DNA from: Candidatus Omnitrophota bacterium
GTDB lineage: Bacteria; Omnitrophota; Gorgyraeia; 2-01-FULL-45-10
Direction of reading: 5' to 3'
Assembly: GCA_028699255.1 (NCBI GenBank)
Contig: JAQVUX010000003.1
Span: forward strand, 18,654-82,653
DNA length: 64,000 nt
Below are positions 10,302 through 37,935 of this stretch, one piece after another. The position numbers and the translations under genes were made by a program. A model generated the notes under the pieces. That model made no database searches. It was not told the DNA's origin and worked only from the letters and a program-made list of their open reading frames with translations. The first letter of the stretch is position 1, and every line of letters starts with the position of its first letter.

Positions 10302-11192
10302 ATGAAAAACACGCATATTATATGGTATGTATTCGAAGCCATGAGGCCGCGGCAATGGCTGAAGAACATCGCCGTTTTTATAGCGCTCGTATTTTCCAGA
10401 TCTCTTTTTGACGCCTCAGCCGTCATTGATTCAACGCTTACTTTTATAGCTTTTTGTCTGATATCCGGTTTTTCATACATGATAAATGATATATATGATA
10501 AGGATTCAGATAATATCCATCCCGAAAAACTTAAAAGGCCGATAGCCTCCGGAGCGCTTAAAGAAAGTACGGCCATGAAGATCGCCGGAATAGCCGGTCC
10601 GGTAATAATAGCAATATGTGTATTATGGTCATGGAAGGTGGCGGCCGTTCTTTTTATTTATTTTATTCTCCAGCTGGCATATTCCCGGTTCTTGAAACAT
10701 GTAGTGTTGTTTGATATACTTGCTATAGCATTTAGTTTTGTGCTCAGGGTGTTCGCAGGTGCCGTCGCGATAAACCTGGCGCCGTCTTCCTGGCTATTAT
10801 TCTGCACTATATTATTGTCGCTGTTCTTGAGCTTATGCAAAAGACGGCACGAGGCCTTGCTCATGAAAGAGACGGCCCATATTCATCGCAGGACATTGAG
10901 CGAATATAGTCCGCTCCTCTTAGACCAGCTTATATCATTTACGACCTCGACATTTCTCATATGCTACATACTCTATACGGTTTATTCGGAAACGGCGACC
11001 CGTTTCGGGGCCGAAGGTTTGAAATATTCCACCGTATTTATACTGTATGGGATATTCAGGTATCTTTATCTGACCTACTCTAAGAATCTGGGCGGTAACC
11101 CGGAAGATATACTGGTAAAAGACAAGCCATTCCTTGTAAATATCGTACTCTACACTATCTTCGTCGTTTGCGTTATATACTTTAAGGGGTAA
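10302..11192 (+). CDS. UbiA-family polyprenyl-phosphate transferase (decaprenyl-phosphate phosphoribosyltransferase-like)
   Basis: 8-9 TM helices, NDxxDxxxD motif (NDIYDKDSD) characteristic of UbiA superfamily / DPPR synthase-like enzymes. Confidence 0.6.
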   Translation: MKNTHIIWYVFEAMRPRQWLKNIAVFIALVFSRSLFDASAVIDSTLTFIAFCLISGFSYMINDIYDKDSDNIHPEKLKRPIASGALKESTAMKIAGIAGPVIIAICVLWSWKVAAVLFIYFILQLAYSRFLKHVVLFDILAIAFSFVLRVFAGAVAINLAPSSWLLFCTILLSLFLSLCKRRHEALLMKETAHIHRRTLSEYSPLLLDQLISFTTSTFLICYILYTVYSETATRFGAEGLKYSTVFILYGIFRYLYLTYSKNLGGNPEDILVKDKPFLVNIVLYTIFVVCVIYFKG

Positions 11193-11195
11193 CGA

Positions 11196-12917
11196 TTGGC
11201 CTATTATATCAAACCTTTTATACTATACTGGACGCTGGCGTTAATATATTTTCTGCTCATCAGGTCTTATTCAAAAGAGGCGATGCGGAAAACGCTGAGC
11301 CGTTTTATCCCGCAGGCAATCATTTGCCAGCTGGTGTACTGGTTGCTGATATTCAGGATATCAATAGATAAACTCAATCCGTTTGTGTTGGGCGGAAGGG
11401 GTATATACGAAGTTTACGCGAAAGTATATTTTTTTATCATGATGGGTATCTTTACCGCTTATGTTGCAAAGAAGATAAGAAATATTTTTAAGGGCCGGGA
11501 AGAGGCTATGATCTATTCTCCCGCGCTTTTTTTATTTTTTTATGCGGCATATTCTCTGTTTGCCAACGCCCAATATACCCACGCCGCCGCTTTTATATTC
11601 CTATTTATTTTAGTGGTTATGATAAAGCCGGGCCTTGGAATCTCCGGTACCGCGTCGGGCTTTAAAGAGGTGTTTTATAAAAAAGAATATATATATGTCA
11701 TTATTATATTTGCCGCGGCATTTACCATGAAATTTCTTTTCTATGAAAGGCTACTGCACATGGCCGGCGACAGGTTTCTTATGGCGAGTGACGACGGGCT
11801 TACGTACGCGCCGTATGCGCTCGACTGGGCGCACGGCAGGATTCCGGAGAACGGCACCTACTGGGGCGGATTCGGATACTGGGTATTTTTAGGCAGTATA
11901 TACAGAATATTCGGAGACTGCAATCATCTGGCCATGGCGCTCATACAGTCTTTAATGGGCGCGTCCGTTCCTGTAGCGGTATTTTATATTGCGAAAACCG
12001 TATTTTCCCGACCTGCCGCTTTCATCGCCTCGGCCCTGACGGCGCTCGACCTGAACCTCACATTTCTTTCCACGGTAATAGGTATGGAGGCGCTGTATAT
12101 CCCCATGTTCTATCTGAGCTTGTCGGCCCTGACGGTATTTTTCTGCCGGCAGGGAACAAAGAAATCTCTCTATGCGGCGGGCATTGGCATCCTTTTCGGT
12201 TTCGCGAACGTCGTAAGGGGGGAGCTCGTTTTTTTTGCGGTGATCACGGCCGTCTTTATCCCGGTATTTTTCGCAAAACAAAACGGCCTGCGCCGTGCGG
12301 CGGTAATAGGAACTATTTTTTTGGCAGGATTTTTTATGCCGCTTACATTGCATGCCGTGAGAAACCACGCGAATTACGGCAAGTTTACGTTTTCTTCCGG
12401 CCAGGCCAAGGCGTGTTTTAAAAAGGCCGCCCATGGCATAACGGAAAATGAAAAGTTGCACAACATGGGATTCAACCCCTTCGAGAGCCCGGAACGTTCG
12501 GTCGAGACGTTTAAATCCAGGCCGGGCGATGTCGCGGGGCTGTTATTTAATGGTTTCTGTAAACGCGCCGCGCTATTTCTTTTTATCCCGAACTTCGGCA
12601 CTTTTGACCCTTTGATACTGATAAATCCCGGTAGCGGATATAAATATCATTACTCCCTCTATCTTTTATTTTATGGGTATATTCTCGTCGCGCTCGGCGC
12701 TGTCTTTGCCTTTATGGATAGAAAGGCCATATTTATCAAGACGCTTTTGGTCTCGTTCATATTTTCTCTGGTATTGATATACGGCGCGATATATGTCACT
12801 AATGCCAGACATAGAGGGGTGGCGATACCGATATTTTATTCCTTTCTCGGTTACGGCGCGGCCGTTTTATACGGGCGCATAAAACACTATGAAAAAAGTA
12901 TTACTCGTAAAGCCTAA
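11196..12917 (+). CDS. GT-C fold membrane glycosyltransferase (ArnT/PMT-like, GT39/GT83-type), paralog of 47641..49443
   Basis: Polytopic membrane protein, DD motif in loop (LMASDDGLTY), clear paralogy with 47641 ORF (shared blocks VIGMEALYIP, FIPNFGTFDP, NPGSGY, NARHRGV). Confidence 0.6.
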   Translation: MAYYIKPFILYWTLALIYFLLIRSYSKEAMRKTLSRFIPQAIICQLVYWLLIFRISIDKLNPFVLGGRGIYEVYAKVYFFIMMGIFTAYVAKKIRNIFKGREEAMIYSPALFLFFYAAYSLFANAQYTHAAAFIFLFILVVMIKPGLGISGTASGFKEVFYKKEYIYVIIIFAAAFTMKFLFYERLLHMAGDRFLMASDDGLTYAPYALDWAHGRIPENGTYWGGFGYWVFLGSIYRIFGDCNHLAMALIQSLMGASVPVAVFYIAKTVFSRPAAFIASALTALDLNLTFLSTVIGMEALYIPMFYLSLSALTVFFCRQGTKKSLYAAGIGILFGFANVVRGELVFFAVITAVFIPVFFAKQNGLRRAAVIGTIFLAGFFMPLTLHAVRNHANYGKFTFSSGQAKACFKKAAHGITENEKLHNMGFNPFESPERSVETFKSRPGDVAGLLFNGFCKRAALFLFIPNFGTFDPLILINPGSGYKYHYSLYLLFYGYILVALGAVFAFMDRKAIFIKTLLVSFIFSLVLIYGAIYVTNARHRGVAIPIFYSFLGYGAAVLYGRIKHYEKSITRKA

Positions 12918-15042
12918 GGACGAATACTCATACGCGGTGATACCGAGCCTCGGGCTCGGGTATCTTGCCGCTTCTTTAAGGAAAAAAGGTTTTGAGCCGC
13001 ACATAATGGATTTGAATAAGCCCGGCTTGAGCGTTGCGGCTTTCGAAAAATATATGGCGGAGCATTCTTTTCCGGTTGTGGGCTTGCAGGTATATACCAG
13101 CAGTATCCGTAGCGCTAACGACGTCGCGGCTATCTCGCGCAGGGTCAATAAAGACACGGTTATAATAGCCGGCGGTCTGCATCCTTCCGGCGACCCGGAG
13201 CACGCCCTGCGGAGCATTCCCGATGTCGATTGTCTCGTCGTAGGTGAAGGCGAGAATGCGATCGCGGCTATCGCGATGTTGTCGAGAAAGGATATGCCGT
13301 TTGCCCTCGAAGGAATCAAGAATACCGCGTTCAGGAGGCCCGACGGTAAAATCATGGTTGGCCCCCTCGAGACGATAGAGGATTTGGAGGATGTGCCGAT
13401 GCCGGCGTGGGACCTTATCGACCCGAGGACATACGGGATATCGCCGCATGGCACATTTTCGCGGTCGTATCCGGTCGCTCCTATAATAACTTCGAGAGGA
13501 TGTCCTTACGCGTGCACGTTTTGCGCGGCGTTCAGGATATTCGGCAGAAAAGTGCGCCGGAGAACGGTTGGGAGTGTTCTCGACGAGATATCGTTTCTGC
13601 GCAATGAATACGGCGTGAGGGAGTTCCATATAGAGGACGATAATTTTACGATCGAGAAAGATTATGTCATGCGGTTCTGCAAAGGCATCAAGGAGCGGTC
13701 GCTCGAGATATGGTGGGCCTGCCCTAACGGCATCCGTATAGACAAAGTCGACGCCGAGATGCTCGCCGCGATGGAGTCCTCGGGATGTTATTCGGTGGCG
13801 CTCGGGATAGAGTCCGGCTCCTCCAGGGTGCTCGGGATGATGAGAAAGAGCCTGAGGGCCGAAAGCGTGGGCGCCATGGTTGACATGATAAAACGTAATT
13901 CGCGCATGAGCGTCACGGGTTTTTTCCTTATAGGGTATCCGGGCGAGACCGTCGATGATATCAAGAAAACGCTCGAGCTTTCCCGGAAGCTCAAGCTCGA
14001 TAAGGCGAGCTTCTCCCCGGTGATGCCGATACCGGGAAGCCAGATATACGGCGAATGGAAGAAGCGCCTCGGGGGCCGCGCTGTTTCATGGGAGAAGTTC
14101 CTGTATTACCAGATAGTGCCTTTTGTCTCCGATATTCCGCCGGCGCTATTGTCGAAATATCTAAAAAAGGCAGTCGTGGGTTTTTACATGCGGCCCAGAG
14201 TAATCATGGGGCTCCTGCGGGAGATAAAGACACAAGATCAGATAAAGGCGCTGTTTAAAAGGGCGTGGACTATATTTTTCGGCAGTACGCTTGCCCGCGG
14301 CGCCGATGGAGGCGAAAAGATGTTGAAAAAATACAAGAGGTATCTATATCCGGTAAAGGCTTTTGGCGAATGGGTGTCAGCGTCTTTTGCCGGGGCGCTG
14401 GTCAGGATGGCAAATGGCGGCAGGATCGGCCGTTACATAAAGTCGCATGATGTAAAGAAACTCCACCTTGGCGCAGGTTCCAATATGCTGGAGGGGTGGT
14501 GTAACACCGATATAAATCCAAAGATGTCCGACGGTGTTTTTTTGGACGCGCGCAGGCGTTTCCCGTTTGTCGACGGTACGTTCGATTACATATTCAGCGA
14601 GCACATGCTTGAGCACCTGGAATTGAAGGATGGCATTCGCATGCTGGGCGAGTGTTTCAGGATACTCAGGCCGGGCGGCAGAATACGCATTTCAACCCCA
14701 GACCTCCGGTATCTTATAGAGCTCTATAATTCGTCAAAGACCGATGTGCAAAAGCGTGAGATTACAAGGATAGTCGATATGATATTCCCGGATGTCGCTA
14801 TCTATCAGGATACATTTGTCATAAATAATTTTTTCAGGAGCTGGGGGCATAAATTTATTTACGATTATAAAGTGCTTAAAGAGTTGATGTCCAGGGTTGG
14901 GTTTACGAATATCATAAACTGCGGCGTAGGAGAATCTGCGGATGAAAACCTGCGTAATCTCGAATCTCATGGAAAACATGTATCGGATGAGATAAATAAA
15001 TTACAAACCTTCGTTGCCGAGGGCCTTAAACCTTATGCCTGA
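12889..15042 (+). CDS. Cobalamin-binding (class B) radical SAM enzyme fused to C-terminal class I SAM-dependent methyltransferase domain
   Basis: N-terminal B12-binding domain (VLLVKP...LGLGYLAASL), radical SAM CxxxCxxC (RGCPYACTFCAA), C-terminal MT motifs LHLGAGSNMLEGW and LRPGGRIRISTPD. Confidence 0.8.
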   Translation: MKKVLLVKPKDEYSYAVIPSLGLGYLAASLRKKGFEPHIMDLNKPGLSVAAFEKYMAEHSFPVVGLQVYTSSIRSANDVAAISRRVNKDTVIIAGGLHPSGDPEHALRSIPDVDCLVVGEGENAIAAIAMLSRKDMPFALEGIKNTAFRRPDGKIMVGPLETIEDLEDVPMPAWDLIDPRTYGISPHGTFSRSYPVAPIITSRGCPYACTFCAAFRIFGRKVRRRTVGSVLDEISFLRNEYGVREFHIEDDNFTIEKDYVMRFCKGIKERSLEIWWACPNGIRIDKVDAEMLAAMESSGCYSVALGIESGSSRVLGMMRKSLRAESVGAMVDMIKRNSRMSVTGFFLIGYPGETVDDIKKTLELSRKLKLDKASFSPVMPIPGSQIYGEWKKRLGGRAVSWEKFLYYQIVPFVSDIPPALLSKYLKKAVVGFYMRPRVIMGLLREIKTQDQIKALFKRAWTIFFGSTLARGADGGEKMLKKYKRYLYPVKAFGEWVSASFAGALVRMANGGRIGRYIKSHDVKKLHLGAGSNMLEGWCNTDINPKMSDGVFLDARRRFPFVDGTFDYIFSEHMLEHLELKDGIRMLGECFRILRPGGRIRISTPDLRYLIELYNSSKTDVQKREITRIVDMIFPDVAIYQDTFVINNFFRSWGHKFIYDYKVLKELMSRVGFTNIINCGVGESADENLRNLESHGKHVSDEINKLQTFVAEGLKPYA

Positions 15043-16471
15043 CAAAGTATTATTGATTATGCCAAAAATAGGCATGGGGAGTTTTGATTTTGGTATCCCC
15101 AATGAACCTCCTGTGGGCCTTGCTTACATAGCGGCAATATTAAAAAGACATTCCGTTGTTTTTAAGGTTATAGATATGCGCCTTGGATATTCCTTCGACG
15201 CCGTAAAAGAGATAGTCGCGGCTTACAAACCTACCGTTATAGGCGTAAGTTATTGGTCTCTTGAGCGAAGCAAGACGCAGGCGCTGATAAAGGCCGTAAA
15301 GGCTATTGCCAGTGTGCCGATAGTCATAGGCGGGCCGCATGTTTCATCGGTAAGGAAAGAGAGCCTCGAAGAAACCGACGCCGAATATGCTGTTAAGGGC
15401 GAAGGCGAATTTACCATCATCGAACTTTTAGGTTTCTTACGCGGTGATAATGTTAAATTGGAAGATATAAATGGCCTTATCTTCAAAAGAGGTGGGGATA
15501 TTTTTGAGAACCCCGATAGAGAACCCAATAAAAACCTGGATGATCTCCCGTTTCCTGCGTATGAAGATTTTGAAACAGCGCGGTATGTAAGAAAGAACAG
15601 GATAAATATCGCTACCTCGCGCGGTTGTCCATACGGATGCAATTATTGTGCCGTCAGGTTGACCATGGGCAGGAATTTCCGCCCTCGTTCTCCGCAGAAT
15701 GTTGTAGATGAGCTCGCGCACTGGAACCGGTTGGGCTACGGGGAATTTCAATTTGTGGACGATTGTTTTACTTTCGACATGGCCCGTGCCGGGGATATAT
15801 GCGATCTCATAATAAAACGTGGTTTAAAAATAGACTGGTTCCTGGATAACGGTATACGGGTGGATAGGGTCAGCGAATCTTTGCTTAAAAAAATGAAAGC
15901 CTCCGGTTGCAGGATAGTAATGTTTGGCGTTGAGAGCGGGGATGATGGCATATTGGCCAGGATGGGTAAGGGGATAAAGATACGCCAGGCGGAAGAGTCG
16001 GTGCGGATGGCAAAGAATGCCGGCATAGAATACGTCGGAGCGACTTTTATAATAGGGCATCCGGGCGAAAATCTGAATATGATTCGGGAGTATATGAAAA
16101 AGATCAGGAAATGGCCCGCGGATAAAATAAATTTCTACAATCTCGTACCGTATCCGGGAACGGAAGTATTTGAGTGGGTAAAGAAAAATGCCGTAATGTT
16201 TGACGCTAAAAACAGCTATCTGGACCACCTTTCCTATTATTCCGGTATTCCAATATTCGAAACAAAAGATTTTCCGGCAAAGGACCGGATAAAGGCCCTT
16301 AAGATGGGCAAGCGGCTCACCAAAAGCATAACTTCCAAATATTATACAAAGGTGTTTACAAAAAAATATGGTCCGGTCATAGGTTTTTTGGGCGGCAAGC
16401 TCGTCAATTTTAAGCGGCTTATGGTTATTCTGTCCAACCTTGGGGTAAGTAGCCTCATTAAAAAAATATAG
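15035..16471 (+). CDS. Cobalamin-binding (class B) radical SAM enzyme (longest ORF starts 15014; ATG 15035 gives 8-nt overlap with upstream gene)
   Basis: B12-binding N-terminus (KVLLIMPK...VGLAYIAAIL), radical SAM motif SRGCPYGCNYCAV. Confidence 0.8.
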   Translation: MPDKVLLIMPKIGMGSFDFGIPNEPPVGLAYIAAILKRHSVVFKVIDMRLGYSFDAVKEIVAAYKPTVIGVSYWSLERSKTQALIKAVKAIASVPIVIGGPHVSSVRKESLEETDAEYAVKGEGEFTIIELLGFLRGDNVKLEDINGLIFKRGGDIFENPDREPNKNLDDLPFPAYEDFETARYVRKNRINIATSRGCPYGCNYCAVRLTMGRNFRPRSPQNVVDELAHWNRLGYGEFQFVDDCFTFDMARAGDICDLIIKRGLKIDWFLDNGIRVDRVSESLLKKMKASGCRIVMFGVESGDDGILARMGKGIKIRQAEESVRMAKNAGIEYVGATFIIGHPGENLNMIREYMKKIRKWPADKINFYNLVPYPGTEVFEWVKKNAVMFDAKNSYLDHLSYYSGIPIFETKDFPAKDRIKALKMGKRLTKSITSKYYTKVFTKKYGPVIGFLGGKLVNFKRLMVILSNLGVSSLIKKI

Positions 16472-16487
16472 CGGGTATATTGCCTTA

Positions 16488-16496
16488 TGCTATAAT
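16488..16496 (+). promoter_or_regulatory. Extended -10 promoter element tgcTATAAT upstream of ugd; RBS aaggat 16510-16515
   Basis: Perfect TATAAT preceded by TGn, 26 nt upstream of ATG 16522 with AGGA RBS at proper spacing. Confidence 0.45.
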
Positions 16497-16521
16497 ATTG
16501 TCTCCAATAAAGGATAAAAAT

Positions 16522-17817
16522 ATGAACATATGTATAATCGGGGCCGGATACGTAGGATTGGTATCGGGCGCGTGTTTCGCGGATCTTGGTAATACCGTAA
16601 TATGTGTTGATAACGACGAAAAGAAAATAAAACGCCTCAAGGCCGGAGCCGTACCCATATACGAACCCGGTTTAGAAGAGATGATAAAACGCAATGTAAA
16701 AGAGGGGCGTTTATCATTTACGCCCAGGATCAAAGAGGGTGTGAAAAAATGCGAGGTTATATTTATCGCTGTAGGCACTCCTTCCAGGTGTAACGGCGAG
16801 GCCGATTTAAGCTTTGTCGAGAACGTTTCCCGCGAGATAGCCGTTTCGATGCCGTCCTACCGTCTTGTCGTAGAGAAATCAACCGTTCCCGTGAATACGG
16901 GTGAATGGGTTGAGCATACCATAAAGGTTTTTAATAAGAGGAATATTAAATTCGACGTTGCTTCCAACCCGGAATTTTTAAAGGAAGGCTCGGCTATAAA
17001 AGATTTCATGAACCCGGACAGGGTAGTCGTTGGCGTTAAATCCAAAAAAGCCCGCGACATACTGGTGGAACTCTACAAACCGCTCAAAGCTCCGATAGTC
17101 GTAACCGACATTAAATCCGCCGAGATAATCAAGCACGCCTCAAATTCCTTTTTAGCCACGAAGATATCTTTTATAAACGCCATATCCGACATCTGTGACA
17201 AGGTGGGCGCGGATATAGTTGAGGTGGCCAAGGGCATAGGCCTCGACAGGCGGATAGGCAAAGATTTTCTGAACGCCGGCATAGGGTTCGGCGGTTCGTG
17301 TTTCCCGAAGGATCTGTCCGCCTTTATCCGTATAGCCGATAAGGTAGGATATAATTTCGGCCTGTTAAAAGAGGTGCAGGAGATAAATAGTTATCAAAAA
17401 AGCCTTATTATAAAGAAGATAGAATCGTTATTATGGAACCTGCCGAAGAAGACGATAGGTGTGCTCGGTCTGGCGTTCAAGCCGGATACCGACGACATAA
17501 GGCAGTCGCCCGCGATCGATATAATATCCGTTCTCCTTAAAGAGGGCGCGCATATAAAAACATATGACCCGGAGGCGATGGAGAAAGCCAGGCGGGAAAT
17601 GCCCCGCAATGTGAAGTTTTGCCGGGACGCTTACTCCGTGGCTAAGAATAGCGATTGCCTTCTTCTCGCGACGGAGTGGAACGAATTCAAAGAACTCGAT
17701 TTTAAAAAGATAAAGAAGATCATGAGACAGCCGATACTCATAGACGGCAGGAACATATATGACCCGGCGGAAATGAAGAAACTCGGGTTTACCTATATCG
17801 GCATAGGGAGGAAATAG
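16522..17817 (+). CDS. ugd: UDP-glucose 6-dehydrogenase
   Basis: MNICIIGAGYVGLVSG Rossmann N-terminus, catalytic GFGGSCFPKD motif, ~430 aa; longer ORF from 16480 runs through the promoter so ATG 16522 preferred. Confidence 0.85.
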   Translation: MNICIIGAGYVGLVSGACFADLGNTVICVDNDEKKIKRLKAGAVPIYEPGLEEMIKRNVKEGRLSFTPRIKEGVKKCEVIFIAVGTPSRCNGEADLSFVENVSREIAVSMPSYRLVVEKSTVPVNTGEWVEHTIKVFNKRNIKFDVASNPEFLKEGSAIKDFMNPDRVVVGVKSKKARDILVELYKPLKAPIVVTDIKSAEIIKHASNSFLATKISFINAISDICDKVGADIVEVAKGIGLDRRIGKDFLNAGIGFGGSCFPKDLSAFIRIADKVGYNFGLLKEVQEINSYQKSLIIKKIESLLWNLPKKTIGVLGLAFKPDTDDIRQSPAIDIISVLLKEGAHIKTYDPEAMEKARREMPRNVKFCRDAYSVAKNSDCLLLATEWNEFKELDFKKIKKIMRQPILIDGRNIYDPAEMKKLGFTYIGIGRK

Positions 17818-28824: not shown

Positions 28825-29460
28825 ATGGAAAATTACTGGAAGATGAAGAGCTGTGGCATAGATCGGGGTGCCGTACAAAAAGGAATTATCGAGACATACC
28901 CATTATCGGCCTGCCGAAAACCTTCCGAGGCGCATAAGTTGTGGCTTAAACATGTCCTTTCCGCAGGCAGTGTTCTTGATTTCGGCGCCGGAGATTTGAG
29001 ATTTAAAAAATTCGCCTGTGACAATGGATTTAAAGGAAATTACAAAACTCTGGATATAGCGGACGGTATCTCATACGATTACCGGGATATATCCCAGGTG
29101 AAAGAAAAATTCGACCTTATCCTGTGTTTTGAGGTTATTGAGCACCTTCCGTTGGAATCATTTTTAAAACTGATCAAATCTTTTAAAGATATTTTGAACG
29201 AAAAAGGGACGCTTATAATCACCACCCCGAATATTCATCATATAAATCATTTCTGGAAGACGGACGTTACACATATAAGGCCGTATCCATACACGGATCT
29301 ATGCGCCATATTGAAAAACCAGGGATACGGTAATCTTAAAGTTTATCGGTTGGTATGGCGTAATTACGGCCGCTTCAGATTTTTCATAAAGAGGATCCTG
29401 GCATATTTCCTGGAAGTTGATTGTGCCACCAATATTTGTGTTATCGCAGAGCGGTTTTAG
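28825..29460 (+). CDS. Class I SAM-dependent methyltransferase
   Basis: Motif I VLDFGAGDL, motif post-I/II LILCFEVIEHLP. Confidence 0.6.
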   Translation: MENYWKMKSCGIDRGAVQKGIIETYPLSACRKPSEAHKLWLKHVLSAGSVLDFGAGDLRFKKFACDNGFKGNYKTLDIADGISYDYRDISQVKEKFDLILCFEVIEHLPLESFLKLIKSFKDILNEKGTLIITTPNIHHINHFWKTDVTHIRPYPYTDLCAILKNQGYGNLKVYRLVWRNYGRFRFFIKRILAYFLEVDCATNICVIAERF

Positions 29461-33585: not shown

Positions 33586-34446
33586 ATGTCAATATTTCCG
33601 GATAAGATCTCGAAGATAGGGTGGTATCTTAAAAAAGTTGAGTTTCCCGCAAGAAGCTTTCCTGCGGGGTTTAATTTTTGTATTCACACAGAGATGATTC
33701 ACGACGACGACACATATAATTCGGTCAGGAAGTTCGCGAAGAAATTCAACGCGTATACCGGCAAGAAGATTGCTGTTTGTATCATGACACCCGCCTGCCC
33801 GCTCATAAGATCTTCGATGGAAAAGGCGGGTGTTTCGGACGGAGAGTTCCGCTCGAGAGTTACCGCTATATCGGAATTTGCCGAGATCGGGTACCATGGG
33901 CACTTTTATTTAACCGGCGGTAGTACTCTTACGCAGATCTCGCACATGAATTACGACAAGGAGGCCATCAGGGCGCAAATCGATGAAGAGATGGCGTGGT
34001 TTAAAGTCTCCGGTATTTATCCTGCGGTGTATATAGCCGGCTGGTGGTTTTTGACGGCGGATATAGTCGCAAAACTTGAAAGCTGCGGGTTTTTGATAGA
34101 CGTATCGATAAGAAGAGGGAAAATCGATACGGCCGGCGGTAAATATCTTGAAGATGCGATTATCCCGAAATACGGCCAGCCATTTATACTGCCGCCATCA
34201 AAAAACATCGTAGAGATACAGAGCGTTTTCGGTCCCGTGATGCCGCCGCCCATTATGCGGGGGCATTTGTCGCCGTATCTTAAAGAAGACGTTGACCGGC
34301 AGTTATCTTTTATTTTTCCCTTGCACGATTGGGATATTGCGAAGTATTACCGGAATATATGGTTGAATGTGCGCGAACTGGAAGGGTGTAAAAAGACAAT
34401 AGAATGGATGAATCTAAATGAAATGCGTGACCGCTTTCTCCGCTGA
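33586..34446 (+). CDS. Hypothetical protein (possibly divergent carbohydrate esterase/deacetylase-like)
   Basis: No firm motif; His/Asp-rich blocks (IHTEMIHDDD, GYHGHFY) weakly reminiscent of NodB-type metal site. Confidence 0.3.
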   Translation: MSIFPDKISKIGWYLKKVEFPARSFPAGFNFCIHTEMIHDDDTYNSVRKFAKKFNAYTGKKIAVCIMTPACPLIRSSMEKAGVSDGEFRSRVTAISEFAEIGYHGHFYLTGGSTLTQISHMNYDKEAIRAQIDEEMAWFKVSGIYPAVYIAGWWFLTADIVAKLESCGFLIDVSIRRGKIDTAGGKYLEDAIIPKYGQPFILPPSKNIVEIQSVFGPVMPPPIMRGHLSPYLKEDVDRQLSFIFPLHDWDIAKYYRNIWLNVRELEGCKKTIEWMNLNEMRDRFLR

Positions 34447-36453: not shown

Positions 36454-37935
36454 ATGAAGAGGATACTTAAAATTACATCGGTTCTAGGCGCGGCGACCCT
36501 CGTAAAGATGGCCGTGGGCCTTATCCGCGCAAAATTTCTGGCATGGCAGATAGGGCCGGCCGGGGTGGGGCGTCTTGGCCAGGCTATGATGTATTCGATA
36601 TTTACCATACAGCTATGCTCGATGAATATGAGTATGGGCCTGACGAAGAATCTCTCGGAATCGCTTTCACAAAAAAAAGATGAGGATGTTTCAAAGACGA
36701 TTAATATAGCCGCTACCCTACAGTTTGTGTTATCAGCTGTATTTATAATTTCCATATTGCCGTTTTCGGGCAGGGTAACCAAGTTCCTATTTTCGGATAT
36801 GAGATATCTGGGATTTTTTATCGGTATCACTTTGGCTACGCCTTTTGCCGTATATATGAGCGGTATCGCCGATTCGATATTCTATAGTTTCAAGAAGATA
36901 CCGGAATACGCGAAGCTTATGATCTATCACGCATTAGCCGGCCTTGTGATACTTTTTATCCTGGTATGGTTCTTTAAGACGAATGGTGCGATATTGCAGG
37001 TTATAATCGTATCCGTACTGGGATTTATACTTGCGAATTATTTCATACGTAAAGCTACTTTTGTAAAGCAAAAGGTCGATCTTCGCATTCTCGGTAACGA
37101 TAAGGCCAGGCGTATATCGATAGAACTTTTCCAATACGGCCTGATAACTTTTTTGCCGGGCATGCTGACCACATTTACCATACTTTTCCTACGCAGTATA
37201 TTTATAAAAGAATTCGGCATTTCGGCGAACGGATATTATCAGGTTGCCTACGCGCTCAGCTCATACTATCTGCCCTTTGTGATGAACGCGTTATGGGGTC
37301 ATTTCTATCCGGAGATGTGCGCTATCAAAGATAACACCGGCATCAATCATGAAGTGAATCAATACATACGGTTTACGCTCTTTGCTTCTACGGCTATCGC
37401 CGCGCCGGTCATAATCTTCAGTAAGTATATAGTGCTCCTTGTCTTCTCGCGTGATTTTTTGAGCGCGTCGGGGCTTCTTGCCATACAGGTAACAGGAGAT
37501 ATATTCTTCGTCTTGTGCTGTATGTTCAGCACTTCACTCATGGCGAGAAAAAAGGTGAAGGCGCTTATATGGATTTCGATGCTCGGGTATAACCTGGCCA
37601 TTGTATGTTTTTATTTCATATTTGCGAAGCTGTGCGGACTTGATATAAAGAGCCTGAATATGGCCGTAGCCGCGGCGAACGTAGTATTTGCCGTGATATA
37701 CACCATATATTATAAATTGGACACCGGATTTTCACTGGCAATAGAGAATAAGGGGCTTCTTATAAAGAGCGTCATCCTTTTGATGATATTATGGTATTTG
37801 CCGGGCGCTAATATCATGACGTTCCTGGTAAAATCTTTTATTATCCCGGCGTGGTTGTTTTTATCGGCGACAAAAAAAGAGATGGATGGTTTCCGGTCAT
37901 TTGTTCTATCGTTTGTAAAGGAGCGCGCGGCATGA
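36454..37935 (+). CDS. wzx: Polysaccharide biosynthesis protein, Wzx-type flippase (MOP superfamily)
   Basis: ~12-14 TM helices, N-terminal KITSVLGAATLVKMAVGLIRAKFLAWQIGPAGVG typical of Wzx/RfbX. Confidence 0.7.
   Translation: MKRILKITSVLGAATLVKMAVGLIRAKFLAWQIGPAGVGRLGQAMMYSIFTIQLCSMNMSMGLTKNLSESLSQKKDEDVSKTINIAATLQFVLSAVFIISILPFSGRVTKFLFSDMRYLGFFIGITLATPFAVYMSGIADSIFYSFKKIPEYAKLMIYHALAGLVILFILVWFFKTNGAILQVIIVSVLGFILANYFIRKATFVKQKVDLRILGNDKARRISIELFQYGLITFLPGMLTTFTILFLRSIFIKEFGISANGYYQVAYALSSYYLPFVMNALWGHFYPEMCAIKDNTGINHEVNQYIRFTLFASTAIAAPVIIFSKYIVLLVFSRDFLSASGLLAIQVTGDIFFVLCCMFSTSLMARKKVKALIWISMLGYNLAIVCFYFIFAKLCGLDIKSLNMAVAAANVVFAVIYTIYYKLDTGFSLAIENKGLLIKSVILLMILWYLPGANIMTFLVKSFIIPAWLFLSATKKEMDGFRSFVLSFVKERAA

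What the first reader, a model, noticed from the sequence alone, without database searches (positions are those of the whole stretch)
12889..15042. Single polypeptide fusing a B12 radical SAM module to a class I SAM methyltransferase
The 717-aa ORF carries a complete class B radical SAM unit (B12 domain + CPYACTFC) over residues ~1-480. Residues ~490-717 form a canonical Rossmann methyltransferase (motif I LHLGAGSNMLEGW; LRPGGRIRISTPD). This would place radical (cobalamin-mediated) and polar (SN2) SAM-dependent methylation chemistries in one protein, and implies two methylations delivered to one substrate. Such fusions are rare and useful for inferring substrate order.
Basis: seen in the sequence. 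Interest (0 to 1): 0.65.

Follow-up and report, generated by a model that had tools for sequence, protein, structure and literature searches.

The report
Young B12-radical-SAM/methyltransferase gene fusion
An uncultivated Omnitrophota bacterium has welded a cobalamin-type radical SAM enzyme gene to the neighbouring ordinary SAM methyltransferase gene by losing one stop codon, giving a real but very young two-module enzyme that most likely tailors a sugar of a cell-surface glycan.

Summary
ORF 12889-15042 (+) encodes 717 aa: a B12-binding domain, a radical SAM core (CPYACTFC, residues 205-212), an 11-residue bridge, then a complete class I methyltransferase. It is not a sequencing artefact. The frame is intact in three assemblies, including a strain 3.1% divergent at DNA level with 67 substitutions and no indels. 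dN/dS is 0.27 (rSAM) and 0.16 (MT). It is a young, lineage-restricted fusion. About 270 listed relatives of the rSAM half are stand-alone (about 465 aa, the closest ending at "...FGS*" = residue 466). All 120 listed relatives of the MT half are stand-alone and start at M478. The 33-nt bridge still carries GGAGG-7 nt-ATG. The two families never co-occur in 49 species-representative loci. The architecture is rare but not unique: an unrelated lineage (P0258) has B12-rSAM-MT-GT2-MT-GT2-B12-rSAM. Context points to sugar or glycan tailoring: a UbiA/GT-C/UDP-glucose dehydrogenase/rhamnose cluster, an rSAM-DegT fusion in L022, and MT-GT fusions. That the rSAM half methylates is unproven, because no curated family cutoff is met. 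"Two methylations on one substrate" is therefore plausible, not shown, and no substrate order can be inferred. Moderate interest.

The parts
12889..15042 (+). Fused ORF, 717 aa (GenBank MDD3905503.1, annotated only as 'cobalamin-dependent protein', Candidatus Omnitrophota MAG)
12889..14286 (+). B12-binding/radical SAM module, residues 1-466. Orthologs are stand-alone proteins of about 468 aa that end at the equivalent of S466
12937..13272 (+). B12-binding (Rossmann) domain, residues 17-128, PF02310 73.2 bits; AF2 pLDDT >90
13501..13524 (+). CPYACTFC = CxxxCxxC motif for the [4Fe-4S] cluster, residues 205-212, inside the Radical_SAM core (residues 199-364)
14287..14319 (+). Bridge TLARGADGGEK (residues 467-477), 33 nt, 70% GC, stop-free. 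Interpreted as the former 3' end or intergenic spacer after loss of the rSAM stop codon
14308..14322 (+). GGAGG - 7 nt - ATG: relic (possibly still active) ribosome-binding site and start codon of the formerly separate MT gene. M478 aligns with Met1 of stand-alone homologs
14320..15042 (+). Class I SAM methyltransferase module, residues 478-717: N-terminal long helix followed by a Rossmann-type core. Keeps all 23 invariant columns of the 47-sequence family alignment
14461..14499 (+). MT motif I LHLGAGSNMLEGW (residues 525-537), followed by the invariant NTD acidic residue
10302..11192 (+). UbiA-family polyprenyl-phosphate phosphoribosyltransferase-like gene (NF008977, 257.6 bits > cutoff 234). 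Conserved neighbour of this rSAM family
11196..12917 (+). GT-C (PMT_2) membrane glycosyltransferase. Its end overlaps the fusion's start by 29 nt
15035..16471 (+). Second B12-binding radical SAM gene (478 aa from the ATG at 15035; about 31% identical to the first). Its start overlaps the fusion's stop by 8 nt (ATGCCTGA)
16480..17817 (+). UDP-glucose 6-dehydrogenase, a nucleotide-sugar supply gene of the cluster

Best explanation
This is a genuine, evolutionarily young gene fusion in a Candidatus Omnitrophota genome. A stand-alone B12-binding radical SAM gene (natively about 468 aa) lost its stop codon and now reads through a 33-nt spacer, which still carries the neighbour's Shine-Dalgarno sequence and ATG, into a complete stand-alone-type class I SAM methyltransferase gene. 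Both modules remain functional. The protein sits in a translationally coupled operon: UbiA-type polyprenyl-phosphate phosphoribosyltransferase, GT-C, fusion, second B12-rSAM, UDP-glucose dehydrogenase. This operon lies inside a glycan-biosynthesis island of about 40 kb. The most likely mechanism is inferred. Both modules act in the cytoplasm on the same sugar unit, either nucleotide-activated or polyprenyl-phosphate-linked. The rSAM module performs radical chemistry at an unactivated carbon, most probably cobalamin-mediated C-methylation. The MT module performs an SN2 O- or N-methylation. The decorated sugar is then handed to the GT-C for transfer outside the membrane. Shown: the ORF, the domains, the fusion junction, its independent reproduction, the purifying selection and the genomic context. 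Inferred: the substrate class, methylation by the rSAM half, and action on one substrate.
For: Reality of the fusion: identical frame in the GenBank MAG, Logan SRR22315503 (100% nt) and Logan SRR8925730 (96.9% nt, 67 substitutions, no indel). Nei-Gojobori dN/dS is 0.27 for the rSAM and 0.16 for the MT. Stop-loss origin: the rSAM orthologs (57-62% identical) are 468-469 aa and those compared end at 'FGS*' = residue 466. MT homologs (up to 67% identical) are 200-290 aa and align from M478. The bridge is 33 nt with GGAGG 7 nt before the ATG. Youth and narrowness: the next rSAM relative is already unfused at 62% identity. No locus among 185,579 species representatives matches both halves, and 0/49 loci hold both families within 6 kb. 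Sugar/glycan substrate: conserved UbiA/GT-C/GT2/multi-rSAM neighbourhoods in Omnitrophota. RmlA/B/D, two UDP-glucose dehydrogenases, DegT, GT4 and GT2 genes are in the window. There is a family member fused to a DegT/EryC1 sugar aminotransferase (L022). The MT family is fused to glycosyltransferases (L052, L057), and its closest stand-alone member lies in a Wzx/GT/rhamnose cluster (L008). An independent rSAM-MT fusion is welded to two GT2 domains (P0258). Methylase leaning: the best PDB relative is the B12-rSAM C-methyltransferase MgmA (9CCB, E 3e-28), and the best NCBIfam hit is a P/C-methyltransferase family. Operon coupling: 29-nt and 8-nt gene overlaps.
Against: No curated rSAM family cutoff is reached (best 181.7 vs 575 bits). 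AprD4, a non-cobalamin diol dehydratase, is the second closest solved structure (PMC12931638), and BchE and HpnJ score similarly. The rSAM half could therefore do non-methylating chemistry. The two families are not habitual partners, so the fusion may be selectively near-neutral rather than evidence for one shared substrate. The intact internal SD+ATG means a free MT could still be produced. The full-length AF2 model is poor in the rSAM core (pLDDT<50, pTM 0.45), so there is no structural evidence for cooperating active sites. The MT fold search gives no specific characterised relative (TM about 0.45), so whether it methylates O, N or C is open. No expression or read-level data were available.
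Confidence: 0.6

Rival explanations
1. Sequencing or assembly artefact: a missed stop codon or frameshift near 14300-14320 artificially joins two genes.
For: Every other listed homolog of each half is a separate protein. The junction still looks like an intergenic region with SD+ATG.
Against: The same frame is found in three assemblies. One is a distinct haplotype with 67 substitutions, zero indels, two synonymous changes inside the bridge itself, and dN/dS well below 1 in both halves.
Confidence: 0.03
2. The DNA-level fusion is real but functionally neutral or dual-output. The MT is still translated on its own from the internal GGAGG-ATG, so the cell makes free MT plus a read-through rSAM-MT. 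The fusion then carries no information about shared substrate or order.
For: A perfect GGAGG lies 7 nt upstream of the ATG that matches Met1 of stand-alone homologs. Only 6 of 54 genes in the window have so strong an SD. The two families are not conserved neighbours. The fusion is very young.
Against: GGAGG-N5-9-ATG occurs 12 times in the window against 9.5 expected, so the motif alone is weak evidence. The fusion has persisted through at least 3% nucleotide divergence with both halves under constraint. Independent rSAM->MT fusions in another lineage persist to about 52% identity, which suggests such fusions can be advantageous.
Confidence: 0.25
3. The rSAM module is not a methyltransferase. 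It would instead be a B12-domain rSAM dehydratase, dehydrogenase, epimerase or rearrangement enzyme acting on a sugar (AprD4-, BtrN- or OxsB-like), and the fused MT would supply the only methylation.
For: AprD4 is the second best PDB and a good NCBIfam hit (87-100 bits). A family member is fused to a DegT aminotransferase, which needs a keto-sugar (L022). No methylase equivalog cutoff is met. The review PMC12931638 notes that B12-like domains occur in non-cobalamin rSAMs.
Against: The top PDB hit (MgmA) and the top NCBIfam hit (the Sden_1168 family) are methyltransferases. In the gentamicin pathway a transaminase, a class I N-MT and a B12-rSAM C-methylase work on neighbouring atoms of one sugar (PMC4340712), so a DegT fusion is equally compatible with C-methylation.
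Confidence: 0.3
4. The substrate is not a glycan but an isoprenoid or lipid (polyprenyl chain, hopanoid-like or tetraether-like), as for HpnJ/HpnR or lipid B12-rSAMs.
For: HpnJ, HpnR and 'lipid biosynthesis B12-binding/radical SAM' models give hits of 70-126 bits. A UbiA-family prenyl-utilising enzyme is adjacent.
Against: All of those hits are far below cutoff. The UbiA protein passes the cutoff of the phosphoribosyltransferase family that makes a lipid-linked sugar. Fusions with DegT and GT2 and the surrounding nucleotide-sugar genes all point to carbohydrate.
Confidence: 0.1

Closest known systems
Class B (cobalamin-dependent) radical SAM enzymes; nearest solved: MgmA/QCMT glutamine C-methyltransferase (PDB 9CCB), then AprD4 (6FD2), TokK, TsrM, CysS, OxsB
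   Same: N-terminal B12-binding Rossmann domain, CxxxCxxC rSAM core and helical C-terminal cap. Sequence match to 9CCB at E 3e-28 over residues 95-390.
   Different: No curated family cutoff is met and the substrate is unknown. A complete class I MT is attached after the cap domain. Two recent reviews of the class contain no occurrence of 'fused' or 'fusion'.
Gentamicin X2 (garosamine) tailoring set: GenD2/GenS2 (oxidation and transamination), GenN (class I N-MT), GenD1 (B12-rSAM C-MT); PMC4340712
   Same: A B12-rSAM, a class I SAM MT and a sugar aminotransferase cooperate on adjacent atoms of one sugar ring. Here the same three enzyme classes are linked by fusions (rSAM-MT in the window, rSAM-DegT in L022) within nucleotide-sugar clusters.
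   Different: In gentamicin they are separate proteins of a secondary-metabolite pathway in actinomycetes. Here two are one polypeptide in a cell-envelope glycan cluster of an uncultivated anaerobe.
Uncharacterised mega-fusion P0258/P0387 (JGI 3300063055): B12-rSAM-Methyltransf_11-GT2-Methyltransf_23-GT2-B12-rSAM, 1879 aa; relatives P0388 and P0402
   Same: The same N-to-C order, B12-rSAM then class I MT. The alignment is colinear with window residues 1-604 (26% identity, E 2e-50). Relatives of each half are likewise mostly stand-alone.
   Different: A different rSAM subfamily and a different MT family. It is extended by glycosyltransferases and a second rSAM, and it is older (the junction persists at 52% identity). 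It is an independent fusion event.
Stand-alone 'type 11' methyltransferases of polysaccharide clusters (e.g. P0122 from Parcubacteria, P0126 in L008) and GT-MT fusions (L057, L052)
   Same: 61-67% identical to the MT module over its full length, including the N-terminal helix. All 23 invariant alignment columns are kept.
   Different: They are separate proteins of about 235 aa or are fused to GTs, never to this rSAM in the data seen. None is biochemically characterised.
Two-component rSAM + methyltransferase-like systems such as C10P/C10Q of CC-1065 biosynthesis (recalled from memory, not checked here)
   Same: A radical SAM enzyme and a class I MT-fold protein work as a unit on one substrate.
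   Different: The rSAM there is HemN-like (class C), not B12-dependent. The two are separate proteins, and the chemistry is cyclopropanation of a natural product.

Membership tests
Class B (cobalamin-dependent) radical SAM enzymes | N-terminal B12-binding Rossmann domain (PF02310) | tested here: met
   73.2 bits vs cutoff 32.1, residues 17-128; AF2 pLDDT >90 over residues 1-180
Class B (cobalamin-dependent) radical SAM enzymes | Radical SAM core with a CxxxCxxC cluster motif (PF04055) | tested here: met
   68.7 bits vs cutoff 29.5, residues 199-364; CPYACTFC at 205-212
Class B (cobalamin-dependent) radical SAM enzymes | Actually binds cobalamin (some B12-like domains, e.g. AprD4, do not) | not testable with these tools
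   No diagnostic sequence motif exists. AprD4 is among the closest solved relatives (PMC12931638)
Class B rSAM methyltransferases (GenK/GenD1, Fom3, TokK, MgmA, PhpK and others) | Assignment to a characterised methylase family at curated threshold | tested here: not met
   Best NCBIfam hits: Sden_1168 181.7 bits vs 575, MgmA family 130.9 vs 360, PhpK 101 vs 600, KedN5 86.8 vs 700
Class B rSAM methyltransferases (GenK/GenD1, Fom3, TokK, MgmA, PhpK and others) | Methyl transfer to an unactivated carbon or phosphorus via methylcobalamin | not testable with these tools
   Requires an anaerobic enzyme assay
Class I (Rossmann-fold) SAM-dependent methyltransferases | Pfam methyltransferase models above the gathering cutoff | tested here: met
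   PF08241 35.8 bits vs 21.2; PF13489 29.7 vs 27; PF13649 28.9 vs 27
Class I (Rossmann-fold) SAM-dependent methyltransferases | Alternating beta/alpha fold with a central sheet, matching solved MTs | tested here: met
   AF2 model pLDDT 92.5, pTM 0.87. 852 PDB chains at Foldseek E<=1e-3; the 50 best listed are all SAM MTs, best E 4.5e-9
Class I (Rossmann-fold) SAM-dependent methyltransferases | Glycine-rich motif I and an acidic residue after strand 2 for SAM binding | tested here: met
   LHLGAGSN (G528 and G530, nearly invariant in the family) and the invariant D of NTD (module D64). The motif is a GxGxN variant shared by the whole subfamily
Bona fide gene fusion (as opposed to artefact) | Continuous frame reproduced in independent, non-identical sequences | tested here: met
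   L001 (SRR8925730) is 96.9% nt identical with 0 indels; L061 (SRR22315503) is identical; GenBank MDD3905503.1 is identical
Bona fide gene fusion (as opposed to artefact) | Both halves under purifying selection after the fusion | tested here: met
   dN/dS 0.27 (rSAM) and 0.16 (MT) between the two fused haplotypes
Bona fide gene fusion (as opposed to artefact) | Full-length fused protein is actually made | not testable with these tools
   No transcript, read or peptide data. The internal SD+ATG leaves separate MT expression possible
Conserved functional pair ('Rosetta stone' partners) | The two families are recurrent neighbours or are fused in many lineages | tested here: not met
   0/49 loci hold both families within 6 kb. 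At least 7/29 rSAM loci have some class I MT nearby, but of other families and in other orders. The same domain order recurs in one other lineage

The most novel reading that the evidence does not exclude
The fusion marks a previously unrecognised route in which B12-dependent radical SAM enzymes tailor primary cell-envelope glycans rather than antibiotics. The fused enzyme would install a C-methyl branch and an O- or N-methyl group on a pentose or hexose carried on polyprenyl phosphate, made by the adjacent UbiA-type phosphoribosyltransferase. The neighbouring GT-C would then transfer this garosamine-like branched, doubly methylated sugar onto the surface glycan of Omnitrophota. The many stand-alone homologs in Omnitrophota, Smithella, DPANN archaea and others, together with the multi-rSAM megaproteins, would then be a large uncharted glycan-editing toolkit of anaerobes.
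Probability: 0.2. Interest if true: 0.65.

Novelty: new variant of a known kind. Interest (0 to 1): 0.4.

Why it matters
Both domain families are textbook, so the fusion does not imply new chemistry. It is, however, a clean natural experiment. It physically links an uncharacterised and very widespread subfamily of B12-binding radical SAM proteins to polar methylation in a glycan cluster; the exhaustive search gave 10,021 representatives at E<=1e-30 for the whole fused query. Together with the rSAM-aminotransferase and rSAM-MT-glycosyltransferase fusions found here, it gives a testable substrate class (activated or lipid-linked sugars) for enzymes currently annotated only as 'cobalamin-dependent protein', 'YgiQ' or 'BchE-like'. 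It is also a well-documented snapshot of fusion by stop-codon loss, with the relic ribosome-binding site still in place.

Tried and rejected
(2) The full-length AlphaFold2 model was meant to show whether the two active sites face each other. The rSAM core came out at pLDDT<50 and pTM was 0.45, so no inter-domain inference was drawn. (3) The Foldseek PDB search with the MT model confirms only the generic class I MT fold (TM about 0.45), with no substrate-specific relative. The PDB sequence search was equally unspecific, and NCBIfam gave nothing above E 4e-5 for the MT module. (4) Literature searches for described B12-rSAM/class I MT fusions and for rSAM enzymes in Omnitrophota found nothing pertinent. 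Two class B reviews do not mention fusions. (5) The internal GGAGG-N7-ATG was considered as statistical evidence on its own and rejected: 12 such motifs occur in the window against 9.5 expected. Its weight comes only from coinciding with Met1 of the homologs. (6) I tried to find the ancestral adjacent-but-split arrangement. The closest rSAM orthologs are followed by another rSAM, a GT2 or an unrelated MT. P0121 (a 64% MT homolog) lies 3 nt after a gene of at least 434 aa, but no DNA is held for it, so this stays unresolved. (7) The MT-only word-index search cannot be used to exclude other fusions. It failed to return even P0001, and one search failed to return the P0258 cluster, so rarity rests. 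(8) The HGT hint: the rSAM module has the highest GC3 in the window (0.652, z=2.4) while the MT module is average. This is suggestive only and is not used as evidence.

Full report
OBSERVATION. Pfam places a B12-binding domain at residues 17-128 (73.2 bits) and a Radical_SAM core at 199-364 (68.7 bits). Three class I methyltransferase models score above their gathering cutoffs over about 539-675: Methyltransf_11 35.8 bits against 21.2, Methyltransf_23 29.7 against 27, and Methyltransf_25 28.9 against 27. The cluster motif CPYACTFC lies at residues 205-212. Motif I LHLGAGSNMLEGW lies at residues 525-537, nt 14461-14499.

IS THE FUSION REAL? The exact protein is GenBank MDD3905503.1, annotated 'cobalamin-dependent protein', from a Candidatus Omnitrophota MAG on a 219-kb contig. 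A Logan assembly of SRR22315503 is 100% identical over 4154 nt around the gene. A third assembly (Logan SRR8925730, L001) carries the same gene order and a 717-aa ortholog. It is 96.9% identical at DNA level, with 67 substitutions, no indel, and 34 synonymous against 27 non-synonymous codon differences spread over both halves. Nei-Gojobori dN/dS is 0.27 for the rSAM module and 0.16 for the MT module. Two of the substitutions are synonymous changes inside the bridge itself. A sequencing or assembly artefact is therefore excluded for practical purposes, and both halves have stayed under purifying selection since the two fused lineages diverged.

ANATOMY OF THE JUNCTION. Among the 120 best of 2412 homologs in a 5.8-billion-protein database, only P0001 (the 96% twin) is fused. 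The other 119 are stand-alone B12-rSAM proteins, mostly 460-470 aa, covering query residues 1 to about 466. The orthologs at 57-62% identity that were compared end at '...FGS*', which aligns with S466 of the window protein. The 120 best homologs of the C-terminal part (up to 67% identical) are all stand-alone proteins of 200-290 aa. The closest cover 95-99% of a query that begins at M478, so M478 corresponds to their Met1. The bridge is therefore residues 467-477 (TLARGADGGEK). It is encoded by 33 stop-free nucleotides, ACGCTTGCCCGCGGCGCCGATGGAGGCGAAAAG, in which GGAGG lies 7 nt before the ATG at 14320. This is the signature of two adjacent genes joined by loss of the upstream stop codon, with the downstream gene's ribosome-binding site and start codon still in place. 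The SD-like motif is not significant on its own, since GGAGG-N5-9-ATG occurs 12 times in the window against 9.5 expected. It is nevertheless stronger than the SD of most genes here (only 6 of 54 have GGAGG), and it sits precisely at the homologous start.

HOW OLD AND HOW WIDESPREAD? The fusion is young and narrow. No homolog between 96% and 62% identity was found, and at 62% the gene is already unfused. In 185,579 species-representative genomes, 49 loci encode a relative of one half and none encodes both. A phmmer scan of all six-frame ORFs in those loci found the two families together within 6 kb in 0 of 49. Downstream of the closest unfused rSAM orthologs lies another rSAM, a GT2 or a class I MT of a different family (BLASTP E about 1e-4 against the window MT). 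A crude scan with 11 diverse MT queries found some class I MT near the rSAM in at least 7 of 29 loci. It was directly adjacent in 2-3 of them, in varying order. The two halves are thus not a conserved pair. They are interchangeable parts of glycan-tailoring clusters that happened to become neighbours in this lineage. The rSAM module has the highest GC3 of all genes in the window (0.652; mean 0.528, sd 0.051), whereas the MT module is average (0.535). This is a weak hint that the rSAM gene arrived next to a resident MT.

IS THE ARCHITECTURE UNIQUE? No. An exhaustive phmmer search of 1.84 billion representatives with the full-length protein listed 150 best hits. Of these, 145 are rSAMs of about 355-500 aa matched in a single stretch, and five match in several stretches. 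Four of those five are long. P0261 is a tandem B12-rSAM (1001 aa). P0291 and P0320 carry five radical SAM modules each (about 2300 aa). P0258 (1879 aa) reads B12-rSAM, Methyltransf_11, GT2, Methyltransf_23, GT2, B12-rSAM. Window residues 1-604 align colinearly with P0258 residues 1-581 (26% identity, E 2e-50), running through the junction into the MT. A 52%-identical relative (P0402) is also continuous from the rSAM into MT motif I, and P0388 (726 aa) carries B12-rSAM followed by MT. Yet, as in the window's lineage, nearly all relatives of each half of P0258 are stand-alone. B12-rSAM->class I MT fusion has therefore arisen at least twice. It is rare in both lineages and, in the second, long-lived. 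Two recent reviews of cobalamin-dependent rSAM enzymes contain no occurrence of 'fused' or 'fusion', and my literature searches found no description.

WHAT DOES IT ACT ON? The gene sits in a tightly coupled operon. The upstream GT-C gene overlaps its start by 29 nt, and the downstream second B12-rSAM overlaps its stop by 8 nt. The operon order is as follows. First comes a UbiA-family protein that passes the NCBIfam cutoff for decaprenyl-phosphate phosphoribosyltransferase (257.6 against 234). Then follow a GT-C (PMT_2) glycosyltransferase, the fusion, rSAM2 and a UDP-glucose dehydrogenase. Downstream, all on the same strand, are RmlA/B/D-type genes and an RmlC-like ORF. There is also a second UDP-sugar dehydrogenase, a DegT aminotransferase, an AsnB-like amidotransferase, and GT4 and GT2 enzymes. 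A third B12-rSAM, two further rSAMs and three further class I MTs complete the set. The UbiA/GT-C/GT2/multi-rSAM block recurs next to the orthologous rSAM in other Omnitrophota contigs. Three fusions act as Rosetta stones. A 41%-identical member of the rSAM family is fused to a DegT/DnrJ/EryC1 sugar aminotransferase in Omnitrophica WOR_2 RBG_13_41_10 (L022, 899 aa). The MT family is fused to GT2 (L057), and to GT2-GT4-DUF6625...F5/8C in Bradyrhizobium mercantei (L052). P0258 joins rSAM, MT and GT2 modules. The closest stand-alone MT with usable context lies in a Wzx/GT2/GT4/rhamnose cluster (L008). All of this points to a sugar substrate, either nucleotide-activated or polyprenyl-phosphate-linked. 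SAM-dependent enzymes work in the cytoplasm, while GT-C enzymes use lipid-linked donors on the outer face (established knowledge). The simplest model is therefore cytoplasmic decoration of the donor sugar before the GT-C transfers it. This is inference.

WHAT CHEMISTRY? The MT module is a confident class I fold (AF2 pLDDT 92.5). It matches 852 PDB chains at E<=1e-3, and the 50 best listed are all SAM methyltransferases. It keeps all 23 invariant columns of the 47-sequence family alignment. No specific characterised relative emerged, so O- against N-methylation remains open. For the rSAM module the nearest solved structure is MgmA/QCMT, a B12-dependent glutamine C-methyltransferase (9CCB, E 3e-28). 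The best NCBIfam hit is a P/C-methyltransferase family. Every curated cutoff is missed by a wide margin, however (181.7 against 575 bits). AprD4, a diol dehydratase that does not bind cobalamin (PMC12931638), is the second closest structure. C-methylation is the most probable activity, at perhaps 60%, but dehydration, oxidation or rearrangement of a sugar cannot be excluded. The best-understood analogue is the conversion of gentamicin A2 to X2. There a transaminase (GenS2), a class I N-methyltransferase (GenN) and a B12-rSAM C-methyltransferase (GenD1) act successively on neighbouring atoms of one sugar as separate proteins (PMC4340712). The three enzyme classes linked by fusion in the present family are the same three.

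The description of the sequence is right. The claim that the two chemistries sit in one polypeptide is right at the level of domains. The claim of two methylations on one substrate is plausible but unproven. The claim that the fusion helps infer substrate order is not supported, for three reasons: the event is a recent stop-codon loss between non-obligate neighbours, the order rSAM->MT simply reflects gene order, and a free MT may still be produced from M478. The full-length structure prediction was too poor in the rSAM core (pLDDT<50, pTM 0.45) to say anything about active-site juxtaposition.

NOVELTY AND INTEREST. Both domains are well known, the protein is already in GenBank under a generic name, and a comparable architecture exists in another lineage. 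This is a new variant of a known kind, not a new kind of system. Its value is as a pointer. Together with the sister fusions, it assigns a large and uncharacterised subfamily of B12-binding rSAM proteins to sugar and glycan tailoring. That subfamily is spread across Omnitrophota, Smithella, Thermoleophilia and DPANN archaea. The fusion is also a tidy example of fusion by stop loss with the relic start site intact. Interest 0.4. The confidence of 0.6 is for the full statement: about 0.9 for 'a real stop-loss fusion with both halves functional', and about 0.5-0.6 for 'a bifunctional sugar-tailoring enzyme with a methylating rSAM half'.

Noticed in passing
L022 2331-5030 (MHGH01000009.1, Omnitrophica WOR_2 bacterium RBG_13_41_10): An 899-aa ORF fuses a B12-binding radical SAM of the same family (41% identical to the window's) to a DegT/DnrJ/EryC1 sugar aminotransferase (244 bits). 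This is a second, different fusion partner and points to keto- or amino-sugar chemistry.
   Followed up: partly
L060 2649-8288 (JGI 3300063055; protein P0258; relatives P0387, P0388, P0389, P0402): A 1879-aa megaprotein reads B12-rSAM, Methyltransf_11, GT2, Methyltransf_23, GT2, B12-rSAM, and is flanked by a 400-aa MT and a GT4. It is an independent rSAM->MT fusion whose junction persists in a 52%-identical relative.
   Followed up: partly
Proteins P0291 (2331 aa), P0320 (2279 aa), P0261 (1001 aa): Single polypeptides carry five radical SAM modules (one SPASM-type plus B12-binding ones), or two tandem B12-rSAM units. Fusion of rSAM modules seems recurrent in this family.
   Followed up: no
window about 8000-50200, + strand: One uninterrupted same-strand glycan island. 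It holds an LptC/LptA-like 732-aa protein (8078), RmlA/B/D genes, two UDP-sugar dehydrogenases, DegT, AsnB-like, GT4 and GT2 enzymes. It also holds three B12-rSAMs (12889, 15035, 32131), a plain rSAM (35366), a SPASM rSAM (37851) and class I MTs at 28825, 34418 and 40233. This is an unusually rSAM- and MT-rich polysaccharide cluster.
   Followed up: partly
window 33586-34446 and 36454-37935, + strand: Two ORFs (286 and 493 aa) embedded among the rSAM and MT genes have no Pfam hit at E<=1e-3.
   Followed up: no
window 10302-12917; also L001, L002, L005, L006, L007: A UbiA-family protein passes the curated cutoff for decaprenyl-phosphate phosphoribosyltransferase and is paired with a GT-C glycosyltransferase. 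The pair is conserved beside this rSAM family in Omnitrophota. It resembles the mycobacterial lipid-linked pentose donor logic, here outside Actinobacteria.
   Followed up: partly
window 12889-14319: The rSAM module has a higher GC3 (0.652) than all 53 other genes of the window (mean 0.528, sd 0.051), and the bridge is 70% GC. The MT module (0.535) is average. This is a possible sign that the rSAM gene was acquired separately.
   Followed up: partly
L012 (Thermoleophilia MAG), L014 (Pacearchaeota), L029 (Woesearchaeota), L016-L020 (Smithella): Close homologs of the rSAM half (56%, 45%, 35% and 40-42% identity) occur in distant bacterial phyla and in DPANN archaea. This implies wide lateral spread of the family.
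   Followed up: no
ENA ERZ1426817, contig of 2484 nt carrying P0121 (no DNA held): A stand-alone MT 64% identical to the MT module starts 3 nt after a gene of at least 434 aa that is cut by the contig end. This might be the unfused rSAM+MT arrangement but could not be read.
   Followed up: no
(method): The word-indexed protein search did not return long fused proteins when queried with an internal or C-terminal module. P0001 is missing, and the P0258 cluster is missing. Absence of fusions in such searches is therefore not evidence.
   Followed up: yes
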